From positions 170,686,001 through 170,750,000 of the forward strand of contig OX597814.1 of the NCBI GenBank assembly GCA_951406725.2: 64,000 bases of DNA, given 5' to 3'. Positions 1,849-61,500 of the stretch are shown here, one piece after another. The stretch's first letter is position 1. Each line of letters starts with the position of its first letter. Source of the DNA: Octopus vulgaris. Lineage: Eukaryota. The position numbers and the translations under genes are program-made. The notes beneath the pieces are model-generated. The model worked only from the letters and a program-made list of their open reading frames with translations. It had not been told where the DNA came from and did no database searches.

Positions 1849-2459
1849 CGATGATGATGATGATGATGATGATATATATGTATGTATGTATATATGTATG
1901 TATATGTATGTACATATATACACATATATATATGTGTGTTTGTGTGTGTGTATATGCATGCATGTACATATATGTGTGTATACAAGATAGATATAGATAT
2001 CAGGAAAAGAAAGCAGATTTTGAAAGTTCTGACCGAATAAAGTGGTTCTGAATCTATGCCAAAAAAGATAAAAGATGAATCCAGCATCATTCATGAAATA
2101 AAAAGAAAAAGAAAAAAAAAACTTAGTGAAATGCCCAGCCATACATACATATATATATGCATACACATGTTCTTAGCAACTTATAGTAAAGAGGAAAGAG
2201 AACAATTGCAAGAAAAAAAAAGTAAAAATAGAGAAAAATAAAAGAAAAAAGAAAAATAGAGGAGAAAGACAAAGTAAAAAGATTCTTTTGGTCACAATAC
2301 TAAGACAGAAATAATTCCAAATTGTCATTAATGCCTGTTCTATATATGACTTTACAGATAGGATGGTTTAACTACATGTAGTTATTTCAATCTAACTTTC
2401 CTCTTTTTTGGTATGTGTGTGTGTATGTGTGTGAATGTGTGTGTATGTGTGTGTTTGTA

Positions 2460-2520
2460 TGAGAGAGAGAGAGAGGAAGTAGGAGAAAGGGAGAAATAGA
2501 AAGAGAAAAGAGTGGGAAGG

Positions 2521-2557
<37 letters not shown>

Positions 2558-2573
2558 AGGAAAGTGAGATAAT

Positions 2574-2611
<38 letters not shown>

Positions 2612-4490
2612 AGGAAAGTGAGTCAGTGAGAGAAAGAGATAGTAGATAGGAAAGTGAGATAATGACAGAAAGAGAGAAGGAGAGAGAGAGATAGGAGATA
2701 GGAAAGTGAGATAATGACAGAGAGAGAGAAGGAAAGAGAGAGAGATAGGAGATAGGAAAGTGAGATAATGACAGAGAGAGAGAAGGAAAGAGAGAGAGAG
2801 ATAAGATAGGAAAGTGAGATAATGACAGAAAGAGAGAAGGAGAGAGAGAGATAGGAGATAGGAAAGTGAGATAATGACAGAGAGAGAGAAGGAAAGAGAG
2901 AGAGAGATAAGATAGGAAAGTGAGATAATGACAGAGAGAGAGAGAAGGAGAGAGAGAGAGAAGGAGAGAGAGAGAGAGAGAGAAGATAGGAAAGTGAGTC
3001 AGTGAGAGAAAGAGATAGTAGATAGGAAAGTGAGATAATGACAGAAAGAGAGAAGGAGAGAGAGAGATAGGAGATAGGAAAGTGAGATAATGACACAGAG
3101 AGAGAAGGAAAGAGAGAGAGATAGGAGATAGGAAAGTGAGATAATGACAGAGAGAGAGAAGGAAAGAGAGAGAGAGATAAGATAGGAAAGTGAGATAATG
3201 ACAGAAAGAGAGAAGGAAAGAGAGAGAGATAGGAGATAGGAAAGTGAGATAATGACAGAGAGAGAGAAGGAAAGAGAGAGAGAGATAAGATAGGAAAGTG
3301 AGATAATGACAGAAAGAGAGAAGGAGAGAGAGAGATAGGAGATAGGAAAGTGAGATAATGACAGAGAGAGAGAAGGAAAGAGAGAGAGATAAGATAGGAA
3401 AGTGAGATAATGACAGAGAGAGAGAAGGAAAGAGAGAGAGAGATAAGATAGGAAAGTGAGATAATGACAGAAAGAGAGAAGGAGAGAGAGAGATAGGAGA
3501 TAGGAAAGTGAGATAATGACAGAGAGAGAGAAGGAAAGAGAGAGAGATAAGATAGGAAAGTGAGATAATGACAGAGAGAGAGAAGGAAAGACAGAGAGAG
3601 ATAAGATAGGAAAGTGAGATAATGACAGAGAGAGAGAAGGAAAGAGAGAGAGAGATAAGATAGGAAAGTGAGATAATGACAGAGAGAGAGAAGGAAAGAG
3701 AGAGAGAGATAAGATAGGAAAGTGAGATAATGACACAGAGAGAGAAGGAAAGAGAGAGAGATAGGAGATAGGAAAGTGAGATAATGACAGAGAGAGAGAA
3801 GGAGAGAGAGAGATAGGAGATAGGAAAGTGAGATAATGACAGAGAGAGAGAAGGAAAGAGAGAGAGATAGGAGATAGGAAAGTGAGATAATGACAGAGAG
3901 AGAGAAGGAGAGAGAGAGATAGGAGATAGGAAAGTGAGATAATGATAGAGAGAGAGAAGGAGAGAGAGATAGGAGATAGGAAAGTGAGATAATGACAGAG
4001 AGAGAGAAGGAAAGAGAGAGAGATAGGAGATAGGAAAGTGAGATAATGACAGAGAGAGAGAAGGAGAGAGAGAGATAGGAGATAGGAAAGTGAGATAATG
4101 ACAGAGAGAGAGAAGGAGAGAGAGAGAGAAGGAGAGAGAGAGAAGGAGAGAGAGAGAGAAGGAGAGAGAGAGAGAAGGAGAGAGAGAGATAGGAGATAGG
4201 AAAGTGAGATAATGACAGAGAGAGAGAAGGAGAGAGAGAGATAGGAGATAGGAAAATGAGATAATGACAGAGAGAGAGAGAAGGAGAGAGAGATAGGAGA
4301 TAGGAAAGTGAGATAATGACAGAGAGAGAGAAGGAGAGAGAGAGAGATAGGAGATAGGAAAGTGAGATAATGACAGAGAGAGAGAAGGAGAGAGAGATAG
4401 GAGATAGGAAAGTGAGATAATGACAGAGAGAGAGAAGGAAAGAGAGAGAGAGATAAGATAGGAAAGTGAGTCAGTGAGAGAGAGAGAGAG
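2460..4490. repeat. Purine-rich minisatellite, ~55-60 bp unit, roughly 30-35 copies
   Basis: Core GATAGGAAAGTGAGATAATGACA separated by variable (GA)n/AAGGA tracts. Source of the spurious 737-aa Ser/Leu ORF. Confidence 0.95.
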
Positions 4491-4676
4491 AGGGGGGGAA
4501 TTGTGAATGTTGTGACAGAAAGAAAGCAGCCATGTTATGAATGAGAAGTAGGAAAGAGAAGGACAGGCAGGAAACTCTGTGAGTCTGGTGTGCATGTGCG
4601 TGAAAGAGAAAGACAGACAGAAGAATGGAGGCAGTTACAAAGGTATAGCAGAAGATGAAGAGAGAGGAGGCAATAT

Positions 4677-4718
<42 letters not shown>

Positions 4719-5065
4719 ACAGTGCAAGAGAGAAAAAGAGACAGTGTGAGAAGGAGAAGGAAGAGAAAGAAAATGGAAGCGAGATATAAGGAAGGTGCGA
4801 GAAGGAAACTTGAGCTTTACAAAATAGGAGAGGTATGAGGAAACAAAGAGAGGGTAAGAGAGAGAGGATAAGAAAAAAAAAAGAGTGTGGAAGAAGTTAG
4901 AGGAGTAAAAAAAATTCTACTTAGCAAACTAATGTAGAACAAGCATGGTGAGACGGGGTGGGGGGAAGAACAAATCCCCCCCCCACCGACCACCACGAGG
5001 CATTAAACAGTGGACATTTTTATAGGCTGTCTTGTGGTTATCATCGTCTATAGCAGTGGTAACAG

Positions 5066-5400
5066 TGGAGGCGCAATGGCCCAATGGTTAGGGCGGCAGA
5101 CTCACGGTCGGATGATCGCGGTTTCAATTCCCAGACCGGGCATTGTGTGTGTTTATCGAGCGAAAACACCTAAAAGCTCCACAAGGCTCCGGCATGGGGT
5201 GGTGGCGACCCCTGTTGTACTCTTTCGCCCCCAACTTTCTCTCACTCTTTCTTCCTGTTTCTTGTCCTCGACTTCCTATGCAACCGCTGAGCCTGGATGC
5301 GCATTCATCCCTCCGTCGATGCTCTTGGTGTCGGGGGTTGACTTGCTTTCTCTTCTGCAGGTCTTACGAATAGCAAAGGACCACGATTCGGACTTCTCCC
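5066..5400 (+). mobile_element. tRNA-derived SINE (family B variant)
   Basis: GGAGGCGCAATGGCCCAATGGTTAGGG head, GGTTTCAATTCCC B-box, GAGCGAAAACACCTAAAAGCTCCAC body shared with 18850 and 23366. Confidence 0.8.
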
Positions 5401-6789
5401 ATCTTGTGAGCTCTGGAACAAAGACCATTTGCTCAACAGTAACAGCAGCAGCAGTAACAACCATGAATATATACATACTTCTTGGAAAACCACCATCATA
5501 TATATATTATCATCATCATCATCATCGTCATCACTTAATGTCCATGTTCCATGCTGGCATGGGTTGGAAAGTTTGACAGGATCCAACAGACCCAGAGACA
5601 GCATCAAACTCCAGTGTCTGCTTTGACATGGTTTCTACTGCTTGATATTGTCCCTAAGGTTGACCCCTTTATAGCATATACAGGGTGCTTTCTTTTTACC
5701 ATGGCACTAGCACTTGTGAGGTCACTATGTAGTTTGCAAGGGAGAGCAACTTCATGTTGGGATACTAAGAAATAGAGAGGGGTGAGTTATAAGAAAAAAA
5801 AGGGGGCCAGAGTAGAAGAGGTTTCTTGCTGTAGATGAACTACAAGACTGCTCACATTTTAGAAGAGAGTGGGTGGTGAAGCTGGAAAGTGATAAAAGCT
5901 GATGATAAGGTTACAGGAGTGAGATGGGGGAGTCTGATAGTGCAGAGCTGCAGATACAAACTCTGCTAATTGTCTAAGTGGAAGATGGAGTTAATTGTCC
6001 TCCACTTCCATACTCCCTCACATACCTACCTGCACATATATCCCTGTTAAATCCCTTCCCCACAAAATATCCTCCTAATACACTCCCTTCATCCTGTACC
6101 CACTCATTATATCCTTGCCTCCAGGGCCCACTCTCCCTTTCGCAATCCTATGAACTCACTCGCTCTATTCCCTCGTTCACTTCACTATATACACCTTCCT
6201 ATATTTTGGGTGTACAGCCCCTAACCCATCCCTGCTACATCTTTACCATCTTTTTCTCCATTTACAGTAGTCATGTTTCTCTTCTAATGCAAGACCCCTT
6301 TTCTATCTCTCAATACTTCTCTACCACTTCCATTGAAGAGTCTTTGTCTTGCTAGTTACTCGGTGACCTCACTAATGTTGGTGCCACATAAAATGCACTA
6401 AGTACACTCTGTAATGTGGTTGGCAGTAGGAAGAACATCAAGTCATAGGAACCATACCAAAGCAGGCAGTAGAGCTTGGCACAGACTTCTGACTTTCCAG
6501 ATTCTGTCAACTCATTCAACCCATGCCAGCATGGATGTTGAATTAGGAGGATGATTACTGGTATTCAAAGCAAGAAGAACAATGTTCATGATCCCCTTTG
6601 AAGGATCTCTGTGAATGGTAGTGGTGGAATAAAAGAGGAAGAAAGTCCAGTTCATATGTCTTGTTGTTTAGACCCAGGTCAGCTCTAACAGAGTAAGCCT
6701 ATGTTCAAAAGCATTCAAGTCATGACCATCATCATGTACTTTTCGTACATGGAGGGGACCAAGGATTACATTATCCAATGTGTTCTTTT

Positions 6790-10276: not shown

Positions 10277-10462
10277 TACCTGTGCCGGTGACACATAAAA
10301 AGCACCCACCACACTCTCAGAGTGGTTGGCATTAGGAAGGGCATCTAGCTATAGAAACACTGCCAGATCAGACTGGTGCAGCCTCCTGGCTTTCCAAACC
10401 CCGGTTGAACCGTCCAACCTATGCTAGCATGGAAAATGGACGTTAAATGAGGATGATGATGA
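10277..10462 (+). mobile_element. RTE-type 3' tail fragment
   Basis: GTGCCGGTGACACATAAAAAGCACCC...GGCATTAGGAAGGGCATC...CTATGCTAGCATGGAAAATGGACGTTAAA(GAT)n, the same tail as the RTE LINE at 28430-29342. Further copies at ~5509(-), 6340, 10798, 20793(-), 29980, 32578(-), 32908(-), 45085 and 56947. Confidence 0.8.
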
Positions 10463-10479
10463 TATATGTATATATATAT

Positions 10480-10797
10480 AAACAATTGCAGAGTGGAAGA
10501 TATTTGTAAGCCATTCAAGAACACACAAAAACCGTCAGTTTCACTTCAACACTTAATTTTCATCTGTGGCAAAATATTTTCATCACTTTGAAACCATGAC
10601 CTGTTCACTGACAAAACTTGGTGAGGTTGCGGTTTCAAAGCAACAAAAACACTTTAACACAAGAAAATTAAATGCTGAAGTGAAACTAACAGATTTTGTG
10701 TGTCCTTGAATGGCTTACAAATATCTTCCATGCTGCAATTGTTTTTGTTTCAGCACACGATCTCAGATCAAGTCACTTGCTATGCAAGTACATTTCC
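10480..10797. mobile_element. Palindromic pLTR/retrozyme-like element, family H2
   Basis: Inverted arms 10480-10744 (AACAATTGCAG...CTGCAATTGTT) plus ~55-nt tail. Homologous to the single-arm copy at 58355-58556. Confidence 0.65.
10565..10615 (-). ncRNA. Type I hammerhead-like motif with G3:C8 core variant
   Basis: Reverse complement: TTTGTCA GTGAACA G GTCAT-GGTTTCAAA-GTGAT GAAA ATAT T T TGCCACA. Confidence 0.5.
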
Positions 10798-11372
10798 AAA
10801 GCACCCACTACACTCTTGGAGTGGTTGGCATTAGGAAGGGCATCCAGGTGTAGAAACTCTGCCAGATCAGATTGGAGCCTGGTGCAGCCATCTGATTTGC
10901 CAGTCCTCTGTCAAATTGTCCAACCCATGCTAGCATGGAAAGCAGACGTTAAACGATGATGATGATGATGATGACACACATTCACAACACATACACATAT
11001 ATATATGCGTGTGTGTGTGTGTGTGAACTACTACCCGATATCCTCCTCAAGACATTCCCAACACTAACTGCAGAAGTGCATCCTTCAGCTTTACCCTAGA
11101 ACTAGTTACCTCCTTTTTGCTACCCAGAGCAATTTTAATTGTTATCCTTCCTAATGTCAACCACCTTGTAGAATGTACTGGGTGTATTTTCATGCCACTG
11201 ACACTTGTGGGTTCACCAAGTAGCTCACAATCCAAGATCCCTTGATTAAGGGGAATATAGTATAGATGGCATGCCCAGTGTGAGACAACAGTGTGACAGA
11301 GAGATAGATAGGAACAGGTGCTTTGCTATAGAGGAGATACATGGCTACACCAGCTGTTAAAAACATATATAT

Positions 11373-22717: not shown

Positions 22718-22817
22718 TATAATGTACTGATCCATAACATAAAATTCAACAAAAAAAGTACTCCATCTGGTGTCAGATAAATATTATTTATTTAAAGGTC
22801 ACAATACATGAGTTAAA

Positions 22818-22870
22818 GCGCTACTAGTAGTTTCGTATGTTGACAGGATTTAAACATATTCTTCAGGCGC
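22818..22870 (-). ncRNA. Type I hammerhead ribozyme
   Basis: Reverse complement: GCGC CTGAAGA ATATGTT-TAAATCCTGTC-AACATAC GAAA CT-ACT-AG T A GCGC. All core nucleotides present; A-C mismatch closes stem II. Confidence 0.75.
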
Positions 22871-22910
22871 AAACCATATATCAGTTTCTTTAGTTCAATA
22901 TATGTAGTTT

Positions 22911-22963
22911 GTGCCTGACGAATATGTTTGAATTCTCTCAACATATGAAACTATCAGTAGCGC
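22911..22963 (+). ncRNA. Type I hammerhead ribozyme (intact core, GUA site after 22959)
   Basis: GTGC CTGACGA ATATGTT-TGAATTCTCTC-AACATAT GAAA CT-ATC-AG T A GCGC: stem I 4 bp, stem II 7 bp, stem III 3 bp. Confidence 0.85.
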
Positions 22964-23365
22964 TTTAACACATGTATTGTGACCTTTAAATAAATAATAC
23001 ACACACACACACATATATATTTGTGCATGCGTACCCTTGTTTAAACATCATGTGATGATTGAAAAATGATTATCATCAAACAGGTAAGGCTGTATGTTTC
23101 TGTTTTCCATGGAAAACATGTTTAGCTATGGAAAACTATTATCTTGCTTGGAAGCAGATGAAAGTGGGCAGCAGGAAAGGCATCCAGCTATCGAGAATTC
23201 TGCCTCAACAAATTTTGTCTGATCCATACAAGCATGGAAAAGTGGATGTCAGATGATCATGGTGATGATCCTATTAATTTGTGGTAAAAAAAAATTCATT
23301 GAATACAAAGTTTCATTCTAAAAGAAATCAGTTTTGTAGTTTAGTCCCAGCTCTGGACTACATTG

Positions 23366-36195: not shown

Positions 36196-37212
36196 TTTAT
36201 TAGTGTTGTTATATTACTGAAGATTGGGCTTTCAGATTTGCCTGCATTAAATAGACAAGGGATAAATGATTCCTTGTAAAGATATTTCTTACATGCAGCA
36301 AAGAAAAATACATGATCCTTGAGCTGTTTGTTCATCCCGCAATGCCATTAAGACATAAATAACCACACAAATTGTAAAAAATAGCAGCCAAATCTCCCTC
36401 TGCTCACATTTACCAGCTTGAAAATGGAAAAGATACATCAAATATTGTAGTCTTTGATACACCTGAAAAAAAGAAAAAACAAAAAAAAAAAAGGCAGATG
36501 GTTGTGTCCAGAATGCTTTCTGAGCAAAAGCCAGCTTGCTCAGGGTTGGCTTGGAGGCTTGTAACAACAACTTTTCCACTGATATTCCTTCTAATTTGTA
36601 AAAGGAACTGTCCATTGCATATATACGTCTGGTCATACTACATTAACCTTTACTTCAAAATGAATAGGAGACTGCTAATAACAGGTAAAGGAAATGAAGA
36701 ATCAGGAACATACACACATATGGAGCATGTCTTTGGCAATTCTACCCAGTGCAGCAATGTTGCACAACCTTTTTTCAGAACAGGTTCATGTATCAAATAT
36801 AAATTTACCTTTAACTGCAAAATGCAATGCAAGCAGACATGATTATTTTAATTAGAGAAATTAACATATCATTTGTTTTAATAAGTTTGTAAAAGGAATA
36901 TGGATTTTATTACCAATTTTTAATGCCTACTTACTTTTCACCCACCCTGTATATATATATGTGTGTGTGCATCCCCACTAGACCATGTTATTATGTAATA
37001 CTGCATTACAGGTTCTTTCGAGAACTTGACATGTTAAAATGTACATTATTTACATTCGATGGATATTTGTCCTTATCTTGTTTGTTGTTAACACGTTTCA
37101 GCTGATATACCCTCCAGCCTTTTTCAGGTGTCTTGGGGAAATTTCGAACCTGGGTTCTCATTCCTAAGGTCTTTTTCGATATCATTATTATTATTATTAT
37201 TATTATTGTTTG

Positions 37213-37285
37213 GCTCACTGCTTGGAATCGAACTAGGAATCTTGGGGTTAGTAGCCCACGTTCTTAACCACTACGCCATATGCCC
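37213..37285 (-). promoter_or_regulatory. tRNA-derived internal Pol III promoter (A and B boxes) of the H5 monomer
   Basis: Reverse complement GGGCATATGGCGTAGTGGTTAAGAACGTGGGCTACTAACCCCAAGATTCCTAGTTCGATTCCAAGCAG: A box TGGCGTAGTGG, anticodon-like arm with CT-ACT-AA loop, B box GTTCGATTCC. Second copy at ~37643-37715. Confidence 0.75.
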
Positions 37286-37333
37286 GTGGGCATATAGTGT
37301 AGTGGTTAACCAATTCTAAGCAGTGATCTGAAC

Positions 37334-37364
<31 letters not shown>

Positions 37365-37828
37365 TGGAAAAATACATTAGGAATGAGAACACAGGTTCGA
37401 AATTTCCCCAAGACACCCAAAGAGGGCTGGAGGGTATATCAGCTGAAACGATGTGTTAACAACAAACAAGATGAGGACAAATATCCATCAAATGTAAATT
37501 TGTCCTCATCTTGTTTGTTGTTAACGTGTTTTGGCTGATATACCCTCCAGCCTTTTTCAGGTGTCTTGGGGAAATTTCAAACCTGGGTTCTCATTCCTAA
37601 GGTCTTTTTCGATATTATTATTATTATTATTGTTATTGTTCAGCTCACTGCTTGGAATCGAACTAGGAATCTTGGAGTTAGTAGCACACGTTCTTAACCA
37701 CTACGCCATATGCCCGTGGGCATATAGTGTAGTGGTTAACCGATTCTAAGCAGTGAGCTTATTATAATAATAATAATAACATCGAAAAATACCTTAGGAA
37801 TGAGAACCCAGGTTCGAAATTTCCCCAA

Positions 37829-37874
37829 GACACCTGAAGAAGGCTGGAGGGTATATCAGCCGAAACGTTGTGTT
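37829..37874 (+). ncRNA. Minimal type I hammerhead ribozyme with palindromic stem III
   Basis: GACAC CTGAAGA A GGCTG-GAGGGTATAT-CAGCC GAAA CG T T GTGTT. Stem III is the ACGU palindrome (dimer type). The other three monomers have core mutations. Confidence 0.75.
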
Positions 37875-38117
37875 AACAACAAGCAAGATGAGGACAAATA
37901 TCCATTGAATATAAATAATGTACATAATTCCTCATCTCTTCAATATAGAACTATGTTAAAATGTGTATGCTTATTCAGGTTAAATTTTTGTTTTTTGTTT
38001 CTGCACAACTTTCATAATTTTACAGATGCTTTTTAACTATAGAAATAACAGGTATAATTACTGAGTAATATATTATTAGGTGATATAAAAAAAAAACAAA
38101 TAATAATAATAATAATA

Positions 38118-57260: not shown

Positions 57261-58354
57261 AAGGACATTGCTCTTTCTTTGATTAAATTAATTAAAAAGA
57301 AGAAAAAAAAAAAAAAATTCAAGGCCACATAGTTGTTGATTCAAACCAACACCCAATACAGATACTTATTTTTATCAAGACCAGAAGCGCAAAGATGACC
57401 ATAGCAGAATTTCAATAAACAATTTGAGGGACAGATAATATCACTGAGCTTGGCATCCTAGTGATTTGGCCATCCTCAAGTCACTGATGAGAAAATGCTT
57501 ACAGTAGCTGGTTTATCCAAGCTGTCACTCATCTATGTATTAAAAAGCCTTTATATATTACCCAACTTCAATGAACATATTATATGAGAATCAGTGTTTT
57601 CAAAGTGATATGGCTTTAAGCTGAAATAATACAGGTTACAATAGAAAATAATAGTGAGGAGAAGGAGGAGGAGAAGGACAATAGCAAATGTAAATTAAAA
57701 AGCTAAAAACAAAATTATGTAAATAGTATGCAATTAGGAAACTTTTGGCTATTTCCATATAAAGTCTAGATGGAGGAATGAGTGGTGTTCATTGAGAATT
57801 ATAAAAACAAAACAAACTGACACACACATAGATTTGCTATTTGTATGTGAAGAGTTGAAGTTCAGTATGAAGAATATCAAAAGTTATGCTACATCCAGTG
57901 AAATAATCTAAATCTAGACTTGAGGGATAATTTCTAAACTTTTTTTTGTATCCATCCACTTTTTTAGCATTTTTATTTTTTATTTTTGGAAAGACCAGAT
58001 GTGTAAGACATGGGTGTGACTTGGCTATTAAAGATCCCATCCAGTAGGTAAGTAGGCAGAAAACTAGAACACACACATGAATACGTACAAATATACATAT
58101 ATACTAATATACAAACATTATGTTCTCCGATGGAATCAGAATAGTGAGGCAGTTTCAAAGAATAAACTCTGCTGTTGAATACTCTTATACTCTCATCTCT
58201 GTATCCAAATGTACACATACATACAAATACTCAGTGCACTCTCATGTTAGAATCATGTGAAGCCTATTGTAAATATCATCCTCAAAAATATGAGGGTTTT
58301 ATATGCACACACCCACATACAAATCATAAAATTTATTGGTGTAATATCCAAGAG

Positions 58355-58556
58355 ATGCAGCATGGAGTTTTGTCAGTGAACAGGTCGCGGTCTCAGAGCG
58401 CCAAAAATATTTTGACAAATTAAATTTAAATGTTGAAGTGAATCTAATGGTTTTTGTGTGTTTCTTAAATAGCTTATAAACACCTTCCACGCTGCAATTG
58501 TTTTCGTTCCAGCACACGATCTCAGATCAGGTCACTTGCTATGCAAGTACATCTCC
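58355..58556 (+). mobile_element. Monomeric family H2 hammerhead-bearing element with 14-bp TSD
   Basis: GTAATATCCAAGAG at 58341-58354 and 58557-58570. Body homologous to 10480-10797, including tail CAGCACACGATCTCAGATCA.GTCACTTGCTATGCAAGTACAT. Confidence 0.8.
58369..58419 (+). ncRNA. Type I hammerhead-like motif with G3:C8 core variant (G12>A in this copy)
   Basis: TTTGTCA GTGAACA G GTCGC-GGTCTCAGA-GCGCC AAAA ATAT T T TGACAAA: perfect 7-bp stem I and palindromic AATATT stem III. Confidence 0.55.
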
Positions 58557-61500
58557 GTAATATCCAAGAGTTGTTTTTTAATAAGATCTTTTTTGTTAAC
58601 TTTCTTATAACCCATGATACATTTTTGTGAATGTGTAAAATAGAAATTAAGAAAATTTTTTTTTAAAAATCCCTAAAAATTGTTAAAACTAAAAGGGAGT
58701 GAACAGACATTGCAGTTTATTCAAACATAAACACACACAAATATATAGGGTTAAGAAGTTACTTCACAACCACTTTAGCTATCTTATGGAATTTGGTAGA
58801 CTGAAAGTTGTGTGGAAGCTCATCATGAGTGTGTGTCTTTCGCTGTTGTATATCTGAAAGATGTAACCATCAACTAGAAAACTACACATGTATGTGTGTG
58901 TGTATGTGTGTGCGCGCGCATAGAAACATCTTAGTTCTTTCCAGAAGGTTTTAATATTGTTTCTGCACCAAAGTACACTGACTCCCTTATCATGCATGCA
59001 CATTATTGGAAATGCAGTAAATAAGTGTTTGACCAATTGGAAACCAGAAGCCAATGATGCTTTTGTTCATCAATTGTGATAATAAATGATAAATGACAAC
59101 TACTAATCCATGTCTTTTGTTTTATTCTCTCCTCATGAAATTCCTATTTACAAGTACATACAAAGGTGCAGAAAAATGATCAGGTTCTTGCAAAGAGGGA
59201 ACAATACTTTAAAGATCCACCTCTTGTTCTCACTTTCATAGACACACAACACAAAACCACACAAAAAAAAAAACCTCAAAAGAAAAGGTGCAAAAACAAA
59301 AATAAGAATATCTGGTTTCACACCGAAAACCCCCTAAAAGAAACAAATTTATTAATAAAATATAGAAAATGATAATAATAATAAAAATTGGAGATCGATA
59401 ATGTTCGTAGGCAGATAAAAGTATTTTAAGATGTGTGAGTGTGTATTAATTTAGTAGCGGATAAATAATAAAGCTGCCTATTCACAATAACATTTCTAAC
59501 TAGAAACTGAAGAGTCATTTTCAAGTCATAACATCAATGAAAGATATTTTTATCCTCCTTTGAAAATGTAGCAACCATTCTATAAATAAAACTGGCCATC
59601 TTAAAAGCTAGCTTGTTACACACAAATGGTCCAGGGATTTTATTATTATTATTATTATTACTACTACTACTTTTTATATTTATTAATTTTTTTTTTTTTG
59701 CAAGAAATATATTGCAACTAACTGAATGGTTCATTTTCCATTGTAACTGGCCAAGACCAACACATCTCTCTCTCCCGCTTTCTTTGTAAAGTCTTTCTGG
59801 CTGTCCGTCTGTTTCTATTATTCAAACCAGTCACAAAGGCAGCATTGCTGAGCATTCTAATTCCCGAGAAAATATTCTTTCAAAAGAGAATGCATATTAT
59901 TTAATTAAATTTTTTTTATAAAGCGGATACAGGGAGAGCGTGTGTTCAAATGTATCTCTGGATTATTCATGCAACATTCCTGGCAATAAAAGCCGTAATT
60001 CTCTTGAAATCTACCTTCTGTTTCATTATTTGAGTAAAAGCAATAACAAAAGACAAAAGTTTTGGTTAGCCATTATTTGAATATGAAGAATAAATTGCAA
60101 GTGAAGTATTAAAACCTTCATAACTAACATTTATGATATATAAATAAACTGACTTGTTTTGTTTTTTAACTAGAGAGAACATCATCTAGAAAAGCATGTG
60201 GTTTAAGAAATCCTACTTGCAATTACATAATTCGGGGTCCAATTCTACTGTGCAGCACCTTGGAAAAGTTTCTTTATTAAAACCTCTAGCTGGGAAAAAC
60301 TTTGCAAGTGAAAGTAGATTGATGGAATCTGTAAAGAGACCCAGTGGATGTTAAACTGTGCATCTTCTTGTTTCACCAAACATAACGGCACACTTGGCCC
60401 TTGAGTAGCTTTAGTAAAGCACATGCTGATGCTACGAGTATTTGGACTAGGTTTTCTGCTTGAGAACAATGTAGAGGCTGTGGTCTCATTCTCCACCTTC
60501 TCCTAACCATTCTTAGAGGGCCTGCAAAAACATCATGGGCTGATCTTCCACTACTAAAGTGACCTGCTGAAAAGTCGTTCTACCAGACATATGTGAGAGT
60601 GTGTGTGTGCACATGGGTATAGTCATGTCATTAAGTATATGTTCATTGGCTAATTTTTGTAGAAGACTTAGTATAATTGACTCAACCCACCCTAGAAATA
60701 TTCTCAATGTATTCTTTATTGATACAGCTTCTCACAAGTTAAAAACAAATATGAAATAGGTAAGACTTGAGTTCAGAATTCAGTTGGAGAAAATTAAATA
60801 CAACTTCAGGCATTTTGTAGGAATAGGAAAATGTGAGAATAATCTAATACTTTCTTATTTCTGCAGAATTACAGAAAGGAATTTATTTATACTGCAATAT
60901 GTATTTTGCATATACAATTTGTGACCAATTTACTTGTCCAAATTTTCAGACTAACTATTCTGAGACACCAGCTTTAAGGATTTTAGTCGTTTATATTGAC
61001 CTTACTTAATCTAGTGATTATCAATTTGTTTACCAAATGGTTAAGGCAGTGTTTATTGGTGTAAAGAGACACACCATTTTATACACACACACATATTATA
61101 TATGGCTCAAAGATCAAATAAACACAAAGACGAGGTAAAAACAACAAACAGAGTGTATTGAGCTTATGCTTAGGAAAGAAGGTGAGATGTACATGAATGT
61201 TTGAAGGATCTTGGGAATAAGAAGTTAGCTAGCGGTCCCCAGCCGCAAGTATATCCCTGTTGGGAGAACGTCTTGTTTGCCGTAGATTTTCCACAGACGC
61301 AGGGACAGGATGGATTGAAGCCGCTGGTTGCCGGATCAGACGCTTCTGTTTACCAGAGCCCTGTTAGCCAGGTGCGGCCCTGATACCGCTGGGTGTCAGA
61401 ACAATCCGCCTTGGGTGGCCCTACCAGAAATCAAAGTCTCTGACAGTATAGCTCTGGTTGGAGATCATGCGGTCGTTAGCCTCAAATCGCCAGGCCTGGT

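What the first reader, a model, noticed from the sequence alone, without database searches (positions are those of the whole stretch)
10480..10797. Family H2: hammerhead with the C3-G8 tertiary pair swapped to G3-C8
The core reads GUGAACA instead of CUGANGA in both independent loci (10565-10615 minus, 58369-58419 plus). Positions 3 and 8 form a Watson-Crick tertiary pair in the active hammerhead, so a double change C3G/G8C is compensatory. It is known to be tolerated but rare in nature. Here GAAA is intact and stem III is the palindrome AAUAUU. Standard consensus searches would miss this family.
Basis: partly seen in the sequence, partly recalled or inferred. Interest (0 to 1): 0.72.

Follow-up and report, generated by a model that had tools for sequence, protein, structure and literature searches.

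The report
Swapped-core hammerhead in octopus retrotransposon
A very common octopus repeat, likely the end of a Penelope-like jumping gene, carries a hammerhead-shaped RNA motif whose two paired core letters have traded places (G3-C8 instead of C3-G8); it is predicted to cut itself slowly, and the three copies in this window are damaged.

Summary
GUGAACA is real at 10608-10602 (-) and 58376-58382 (+), but the window copies are damaged: 58403 lacks G12 (AAAA, not GAAA), the 10 kb copy has a weak stem I and sits in a 130-bp inverted pair with a third, core-less copy. Reads from four runs (three organism labels) show a very high-copy family. Its majority form has GAAA, a 5-bp stem II opened by G10.1-C11.1, one extra base after A9, a palindromic stem III and a 7-bp stem I, with no change listed at G3 or C8 (40 of 114 variant rows shown). 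That form folds as a type I minimal hammerhead; 0 of 20,000 shuffles match. The repeat has a fixed 3' end about 93 bases into an ORF that continues, in three octopus predicted proteins, into Penelope-type motifs; one copy has a 14-bp target duplication. No RT core or endonuclease was seen, and cleavage is untested. Natural U3-A8 is published; I found G3-C8 only as an engineered, partly active mutant (two key papers not held). This scan noted G3-C8 motifs beside Penelope-like RTs twice on other DNA. Verdict: new variant of a known kind.

The parts
10480..10618 (-). Arm A: inverted family copy; holds the motif and 11 codons of the ORF start; ends 53 bases short of arm B's 3' end, next to a TA microsatellite
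10565..10616 (-). Hammerhead motif, copy A: core G3..A9 at 10608-10602, extra G 10601, stem II 10600-10596/10586-10582 (two G-U pairs), GAAA 10581-10578, palindrome to 10573, U17 10572, stem I with three mismatches in seven positions
10619..10623 (.). Turn between the two arms; a short CAC may belong to either arm (read by eye)
10624..10797 (+). Arm B: family copy reaching almost to the fixed 3' end; core missing, G12 lost, palindrome broken
10710..10797 (+). ORF start in arm B (73% identical to P0002 over 33 residues)
58341..58354 (+). Left copy of the 14-bp direct repeat (likely target-site duplication, overlapping the element ends by a few bases)
58353..58563 (+). Copy C: 5'-truncated family copy ending at the family's fixed 3' end
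58368..58419 (+). Hammerhead motif, copy C: stem I 58369-58375/58413-58419, core G3..A9 58376-58382, extra G 58383, stem II 58384-58388/58398-58402, G12 site 58403 mutated to A, palindrome 58406-58411, predicted cut after U17 at 58412
58469..58563 (+). First 31 codons of the element's ORF (ATG in 97-98 in 100 of family sequences, ATA here); 83% identical to P0002 over 35 residues
58518..58548 (+). Two predicted small hairpins just before the fixed 3' end (candidate site where reverse transcription starts)
   Evidence: analogy to PMC11167929
58557..58570 (+). Right copy of the 14-bp direct repeat

Best explanation
The three copies are damaged insertions of one very high-copy octopus repeat, likely the pseudo-LTR and tail of a Penelope-like retroelement, whose majority form has every feature of a minimal type I hammerhead except that positions 3 and 8 read G and C, and which is predicted to cut its own RNA slowly after U17 as a dimer or with help from the element's protein. 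Shown: the sequence, the majority letters, the fixed 3' end inside an ORF start, the 14-bp direct repeat and the inverted pair. Computed: the fold. Inferred: reverse transcription starts about 93 bases into the ORF, most copies are cut short just upstream of the motif, some fold back to give inverted pairs, and copies then decay at CpG sites. Inferred: the founder element kept the 3-8 pair through a double change because cleavage mattered to it. The copies in this window are unlikely to cut.
For: Majority letters give GAAA and a 5-bp stem II; no row for positions 3, 4, 5, 6, 8, 9, 13, 14, 15.1, 16.1 or 17 among the 40 variant rows shown. Three close differences from copy C were read through in 84-99.5 in 100, so the mapping tolerates such changes. 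Stem II pair probabilities 0.99-1.0, stem I 0.88-1.0 for six of seven pairs; 0 of 20,000 unit shuffles and 0 hits in 150 shuffled windows. The extra base after A9, G10.1-C11.1 and the palindrome are the features Cervera and de la Pena list for PLE hammerheads, who also describe opposite-strand pairs 100-700 bp apart. The commonest non-CpG variant in a stem (58415 A to G, 20-35 in 100) keeps a wobble pair. The frame from 58469 matches octopus proteins P0002, P0003 and, through P0002, P0004, which has PKF, LRW, DKSG and KDHK in the order of the PLE motifs in Craig 2021. Fixed 3' end 92-95 bases into the ORF, as in the anole element PAc (111-118). The engineered C3G/G8C double mutant of the PAc hammerhead is partly active. 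Two core changes hitting exactly 3 and 8 and pairing has a chance of about 1 in 165 if the ancestor was C3-G8 (assumption untested).
Against: No cleavage data: the one RNA run shows no place where many reads begin or end, and reads lie on both strands about equally. 74 of 114 variant rows are hidden, so a minority C3/G8 group is not excluded. Avoidance of core positions by variants is not significant (p 0.15). The double-hammerhead dimer (-25.8 kcal/mol) is not the predicted ground state (two monomers -27.8, best dimer -30.8). U17 is recalled to be a slow cleavage site. No RT core or GIY-YIG domain was reached; no Pfam family passed its cut-off for the PLE-like part, no long relative was found, and PLE motifs were compared by eye. 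In PAc, cleavage is not needed for insertion in vitro. No related element with C3-G8 was found to fix the direction of change.
Confidence: 0.65

Rival explanations
1. The motif descends from a Penelope-type hammerhead but no longer cuts, even in the founder element; the stems are kept for another job (promoter, RNA folding, protein binding) or by recent descent.
For: Swapped pair only partly rescues activity in lab constructs; weak predicted dimer; no read ends at the site; cleavage not needed for PAc insertion in vitro, and Naiad elements spread without canonical hammerheads.
Against: All other core letters, G10.1-C11.1, the extra base and the palindrome are kept in the majority; the two changes are complementary.
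Confidence: 0.22
2. G3-C8 marks one prolific, possibly non-autonomous offshoot; the active master elements carry C3-G8 and are hidden as a minority.
For: 74 variant rows not shown; reads were laid on a G3-C8 reference; loose-end consensus lines in X5 and X9 are noisy over the core.
Against: Rows with as little as 1 in 100 in DNA and 11-13 in 100 in RNA were shown, and none is at 58376 or 58381; the same G3-C8 unit keeps the ORF start codon in 97-98 in 100.
Confidence: 0.07
3. The repeat is a MITE or fold-back element, or a SINE, and the hammerhead look is chance.
For: Locus 1 is a long inverted repeat; the raw window copies do not fold as hammerheads better than shuffles; no Rfam match.
Against: The arms are unequal copies of one unit; one end is fixed and the other continues upstream in other copies; the unit holds an ORF start with PLE-like motifs downstream; 0 of 20,000 shuffles; Rfam also misses the canonical motif at 37834.
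Confidence: 0.06

Closest known systems
Minimal type I hammerheads of metazoan Penelope-like elements (Cervera and de la Pena 2014, PMC4209133)
   Same: Type I layout, 8-base first core strand with an extra base after A9, G10.1-C11.1, palindromic short stem III, dispersed single copies, opposite-strand pairs, position in the repeat before the ORF.
   Different: G3-C8 instead of C3-G8; four inner palindrome bases after A15.1 (as in the Drosophila-like variants with a small helix III); 7-bp stem I; U17.
Natural U3-A8 hammerheads (Perreault 2011, PMC3088659; Schistosoma mansoni Cercyon PLE, about 1,300 hits, PMC4209133)
   Same: Natural compensatory change of the 3-8 pair; missed by the standard descriptor.
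   Different: U3-A8 needs two transitions and keeps pyrimidine-purine order; G3-C8 needs two transversions and flips it.
Engineered C3G/G8C rescue mutant (PAc hammerhead, PMC11167929; review PMC8495972; G3-C8 variant mentioned in PMC3884650)
   Same: Same pair; partly active in those tests.
   Different: Laboratory constructs; here it is the natural majority of a family.
PAc, Poseidon element of Anolis carolinensis (PMC11167929)
   Same: Hammerhead near the ORF start; insertions end inside the ORF at a stem-loop; AT-rich targets.
   Different: Here the predicted cut is 56 bases before the start codon (PAc: 26 after); end at 92-95 bases (PAc: 111-118); clade not determined.
Non-LTR retrozymes (PMC7229834; bioRxiv 10.64898/2026.07.22.740005)
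   Same: Short, non-coding-looking repeats with a type I hammerhead, tied to PLEs.
   Different: No head-to-tail tandem in this window; the unit carries an ORF start and a fixed tail end.

Membership tests
Hammerhead ribozyme (type I, minimal) | U4 G5 A6, A9, G12 A13 A14, A15.1-U16.1, H17 | tested here: met
   Met in the family majority and in copy A; copy C lacks G12; copy B lacks the first strand
Hammerhead ribozyme (type I, minimal) | C3 and G8 as letters (published consensus) | tested here: not met
   G3 and C8 in both complete copies; no variant row at either place among 40 of 114 shown
Hammerhead ribozyme (type I, minimal) | Watson-Crick pair between 3 and 8 | tested here: met
   G-C by sequence; the tertiary pair itself is inferred
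Hammerhead ribozyme (type I, minimal) | Stem II opened by G10.1-C11.1, and stem I | tested here: met
   Majority form: 5 and 7 bp, pair probabilities near 1 except the last stem I pair
Hammerhead ribozyme (type I, minimal) | Palindromic stem III that allows a dimer | tested here: inconclusive
   Palindrome present; dimer structure 2 kcal/mol above two monomers and 5 above the best dimer
Hammerhead ribozyme (type I, minimal) | Site-specific self-cleavage after position 17 | not testable with these tools
   RNA run X23 shows no pile of read ends; a fragmented library is a weak test
Hammerhead ribozyme (Rfam models) | Score above an Rfam hammerhead threshold | tested here: inconclusive
   No hit, but the canonical motif at 37834 is missed too
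Penelope-like element | Telomerase-like RT core | tested here: inconclusive
   P0004 ends at a KDHK..GPP stretch that resembles the start of the RT; no Pfam or PDB match
Penelope-like element | N-terminal motifs GxKF/Y, RW(K), DKG-type | tested here: met
   PKF 145, LRW 169, DKSG 293, KDHK 368 in P0004, compared by eye with text and sequences in PMC8557442
Penelope-like element | GIY-YIG endonuclease | not testable with these tools
   No full-length copy or protein was reachable
Penelope-like element | 5' truncation with a fixed 3' end inside the ORF start | tested here: met
   Depth falls about 1000-fold after 58563 with unrelated flanks; shared sequence continues before 58353 in X1, X5, X23
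Penelope-like element | Inverted 5' copy and a tail at one end only (30-40 bp published) | tested here: inconclusive
   Inverted pair present; arm B runs 53 bases beyond arm A, longer than the published tail
Penelope-like element | Partial tandem pLTR-ORF-pLTR | not testable with these tools
   No genome held
MITE / fold-back DNA transposon | Two matching termini and a short fixed target duplication | tested here: not met
   Copy C has one arm only and a 14-bp duplication; arms of locus 1 end at different places
Non-LTR retrozyme | Head-to-tail tandem units | tested here: not met
   No tandem of this unit in the window; other loci not examined

The most novel reading that the evidence does not exclude
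A whole octopus Penelope-like lineage runs on a working hammerhead with the flipped G3-C8 pair, until now a laboratory rescue mutant. Fixing two transversions across inactive intermediates would be natural evidence that self-cleavage is under selection in these elements, and elements filed as lacking hammerheads may hide swapped-core ones.
Probability: 0.45. Interest if true: 0.72.

Novelty: new variant of a known kind. Interest (0 to 1): 0.52.

Why it matters
Whether the hammerheads of Penelope-like elements do anything is open: they cut poorly in vitro, are not needed for insertion in the one purified system, and some authors suggest they are passengers. A compensated double change that spread with a very successful family argues that cutting is selected, and gives a clean natural test (wild type, two single changes, C3-G8). 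It would complete the list of natural 3-8 pairs beyond U3-A8 and shows that surveys that require cuganga undercount these motifs. The limit: the chemistry is expected to be the known one, and the swap was already known to be tolerated.

Tried and rejected
No genome is held for this window. Rfam: nothing at gathering score in the window, nothing relevant at E up to 10, and the canonical control is missed as well. A 17-base seed gave five viral contigs whose match does not extend beyond 18-20 bases: chance. A longer family pattern found 0 metagenome contigs; protein-based scans found no relative in metagenome or viral contigs. A swapped-core pattern found one viral contig, L006, with a 7-bp stem II but no stem I or III that I could build, inside phage reading frames; about one chance hit is expected by my rough estimate; rejected. 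The upstream family motif is absent from the window. No protein of 570-2000 residues matched the P0002 N-terminus. The single-sequence model of P0004 had mean pLDDT 34.5 and was not used for a fold search. The ESM Atlas put P0004 next to unnamed eukaryotic clusters (score 0.96-0.97, mostly rotifers, DUF8422 on 16-41 in 100 members): a lead only; for the P0002 N-terminus the best score was 0.78, no signal. Runs X19-X22 hold little or none of the sequence and were not used. My early idea that the start of copy C is a remnant inverted arm was dropped: it is ordinary family sequence. Test for variants avoiding the core: not significant.

Full report
Observation. The claim that GAAA is intact holds for the 10 kb copy only. 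The 58 kb copy (C) reads AAAA and has a mismatch in stem II. The 10 kb copy (A) keeps all core letters and five stem II pairs, two of them G-U, but three of seven stem I positions are mismatched. Folded alone, neither beats shuffles (z +1.8 and -1.0). A strict descriptor finds neither; it finds copy C only when G12 is relaxed.

Anatomy. A blastn of the two loci against the window finds three copies, 78-83% alike. Arm B lacks the first core strand. In a transcript through locus 1 the motif of arm A would be buried in that hairpin. Copy C lies between two 14-bp direct repeats, 58341-58354 and 58557-58570.

The family. Copy C's words are held by 20 of 24 listed runs, 15 with half the words or more, under five organism labels. 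I laid four of the 24: three DNA runs (labels A, C, E) and one RNA run (label E). Between 9,583 and 18,536 contigs per DNA run and 1,949 RNA reads fit. Summed depth over the core is 1.0-2.1 million against 20-69 for the single contigs listed, so copies are roughly of the order of ten thousand; the tool warns that this is no copy number. Depth falls about 1000-fold after 58563, with unrelated or TA-rich flanks, while one shared sequence continues before 58353 in three runs: a fixed 3' end and a truncated 5' end. Joints between opposite strands are frequent, several at 58368, so inverted pairs are common. Majority letters differ from copy C at 58396, 58401 and 58403; G12 is present in 97.5, 93.2, 94.2 and 84.0 in 100, and the stem II pair in 97-99 in 100. 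Of 114 variant rows, 40 are shown. None is at positions 3, 4, 5, 6, 8, 9, 13, 14, 15.1, 16.1 or 17. The hidden rows mean a small C3/G8 group cannot be excluded. Six CpG positions in stem II vary at 1-9 in 100 in DNA and 13-28 in 100 in RNA, the usual decay after insertion; the G12 losses in B and C and several stem II changes in A are of that type. Of six non-CpG variable sites in the motif, five are unpaired or keep a wobble pair; their absence from the core is not significant (p 0.15).

Is the motif chance? Copy C with the three majority letters passes a minimal type I descriptor that allows any Watson-Crick 3-8 pair. None of 20,000 shuffles of that 211-base unit does, and 150 shuffled windows give no hit, while the real window gives one canonical hit at 37834. 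The descriptor was written with this layout in view, but its features come from Cervera and de la Pena. The best fold is stems I and II exactly, with pair probabilities of 0.99-1.0 and 0.88-1.0 (last stem I pair 0.48). The double-hammerhead dimer is allowed (-25.8 kcal/mol) but is not the lowest state (two monomers -27.8, best dimer -30.8). The RNA run shows no pile of read ends and no strand bias; this kind of library is a weak test, and the same null was reported for PAc.

The carrier. The frame from 58469 (ATG in 97-98 in 100 of family sequences) matches the N-terminus of an Octopus sinensis predicted protein, P0002 (83% over 35 residues), and an O. bimaculoides one, P0003. P0002 overlaps an O. 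vulgaris protein, P0004, at 78%. P0004 has PKF, LRW, DKSG and KDHK at 145, 169, 293 and 368, the order of the GxKF/Y, RWK, DKG/DKT and KDHK motifs in the text and Hydra-clade sequences of Craig 2021. I compared these by eye; the DK-to-KDHK distance is about 75 here and about 66 in a Hydra sequence. No Pfam family passed its cut-off for this part, PDB sequence search gave nothing, and no RT core or endonuclease was reached. The fixed end lies 92-95 bases into this ORF behind two small predicted hairpins; in the anole element PAc, insertions end 111-118 bases into the ORF where reverse transcription starts at a stem-loop. Inverted 5' copies and a one-sided tail are typical of PLEs; here arm B runs 53 bases past arm A, longer than the 30-40 published. 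Two canonical-core motifs in the same window also sit in inverted copies (37039-37935 and 22791-22990). That the window comes from an octopus is an inference from these named proteins.

Mechanism. Shown: sequence, majority letters, ends, duplication, protein matches. Computed: the fold. Inferred: a Penelope-like element is transcribed through its pseudo-LTR; its protein starts reverse transcription inside the ORF start; most copies stop soon after passing the motif, some folding back; copies then decay. Predicted: in the founder's RNA the motif cuts after U17, 56 bases before the start codon, slowly, as a dimer through the palindrome or with protein help, as PAc needs. G8C alone drops the rate about 100,000-fold and C3G partly restores it; the double mutant of the PAc hammerhead is partly active. 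If the ancestor was C3-G8, two core changes landing on 3 and 8 and pairing has a chance near 1 in 165, which favours selection for cutting. The ancestor is not known. That U17 is a slow site is recalled, not checked.

What is known. Natural U3-A8 is reported by Perreault 2011 (passages) and in Schistosoma PLEs by Cervera and de la Pena 2014 (parts 1-2 of 4). Their descriptor and Craig's require cuganga. Nine literature searches gave G3-C8 only as an engineered variant (PMC11167929, section 3 read whole; PMC8495972 and PMC3884650, passages). Swapped core strings were absent from one of two supplementary files of Cervera (the other was not searchable) and from 11 files of Perreault, where gapped alignments make a null weak. 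Also seen: PMC8557442 (passages, supplement searches), PMC7229834, PMC6155905 and PMC6765202 (passages), PMC2920678 (part 1 of 2) and bioRxiv 10.64898/2026.07.22.740005 (part 1 of 5; supplements closed). Lunse 2017, with many PLE-linked variants, and Przybilski and Hammann 2007 were not held and may hold earlier cases. Two earlier notes of this scan describe G3-C8 motifs with an extra base beside Penelope-like RTs on other DNA; I did not test them, and they are not support. No note matched this sequence.

Verdict. It works like a minimal PLE hammerhead and fails only the letter rule at 3 and 8, so I file it as a new variant of a known kind, cleavage untested. Interest 0.52.

Noticed in passing
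window 10480-10744: The differences between the two arms favour G-U pairs on the minus-strand hairpin (12 against 3, plus 6 transversions; p 0.035, found after the fact). Could be strand-biased deamination or selection on a double-stranded RNA.
   Followed up: partly
window 37039-37935: Four copies (90-93% alike to the one at 37781-37935), in both orientations, of another repeat; the copy at 37834 has a canonical C3-G8 minimal hammerhead with an extra base, 6-bp stem II and a CG palindrome. A good positive control.
   Followed up: partly
window 22791-22990: An inverted pair with a canonical-core hammerhead-like motif at 22915 (7-bp stem II, longer stem III).
   Followed up: partly
window 10300-10463 and 10799-10969: Two copies of another common repeat (79-89% alike) flank locus 1 in the same orientation; the inverted pair interrupts one of them.
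   Followed up: no
P0002 (Octopus sinensis LOC115227545): The gene model joins about 223 residues of this element's ORF to a methyltransferase fragment; likely a chimeric prediction, possibly exonisation.
   Followed up: partly
window 2000-6000: Extreme strand skew (GC skew 0.78, AT skew 0.56 in 2001-4000) with stop-free frames of 500-750 codons on the minus strand; likely a simple-repeat array.
   Followed up: no
window 58414 (table 4): A two-base insertion in the 3' strand of stem I occurs in all four runs (79 of 887 RNA reads); it would shorten stem I to about 4 bp plus a bulge and may mark a subfamily that includes copy A.
   Followed up: no
L006 1501-1530: A phage contig with a swapped core string, a 7-bp stem II and GAAA, but no stem I or III that I could build, inside reading frames; taken as chance.
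   Followed up: yes
P0004: ESM Atlas neighbours are unnamed eukaryotic clusters, mostly rotifer, partly carrying DUF8422; DUF8422 may be a PLE N-terminal domain.
   Followed up: no
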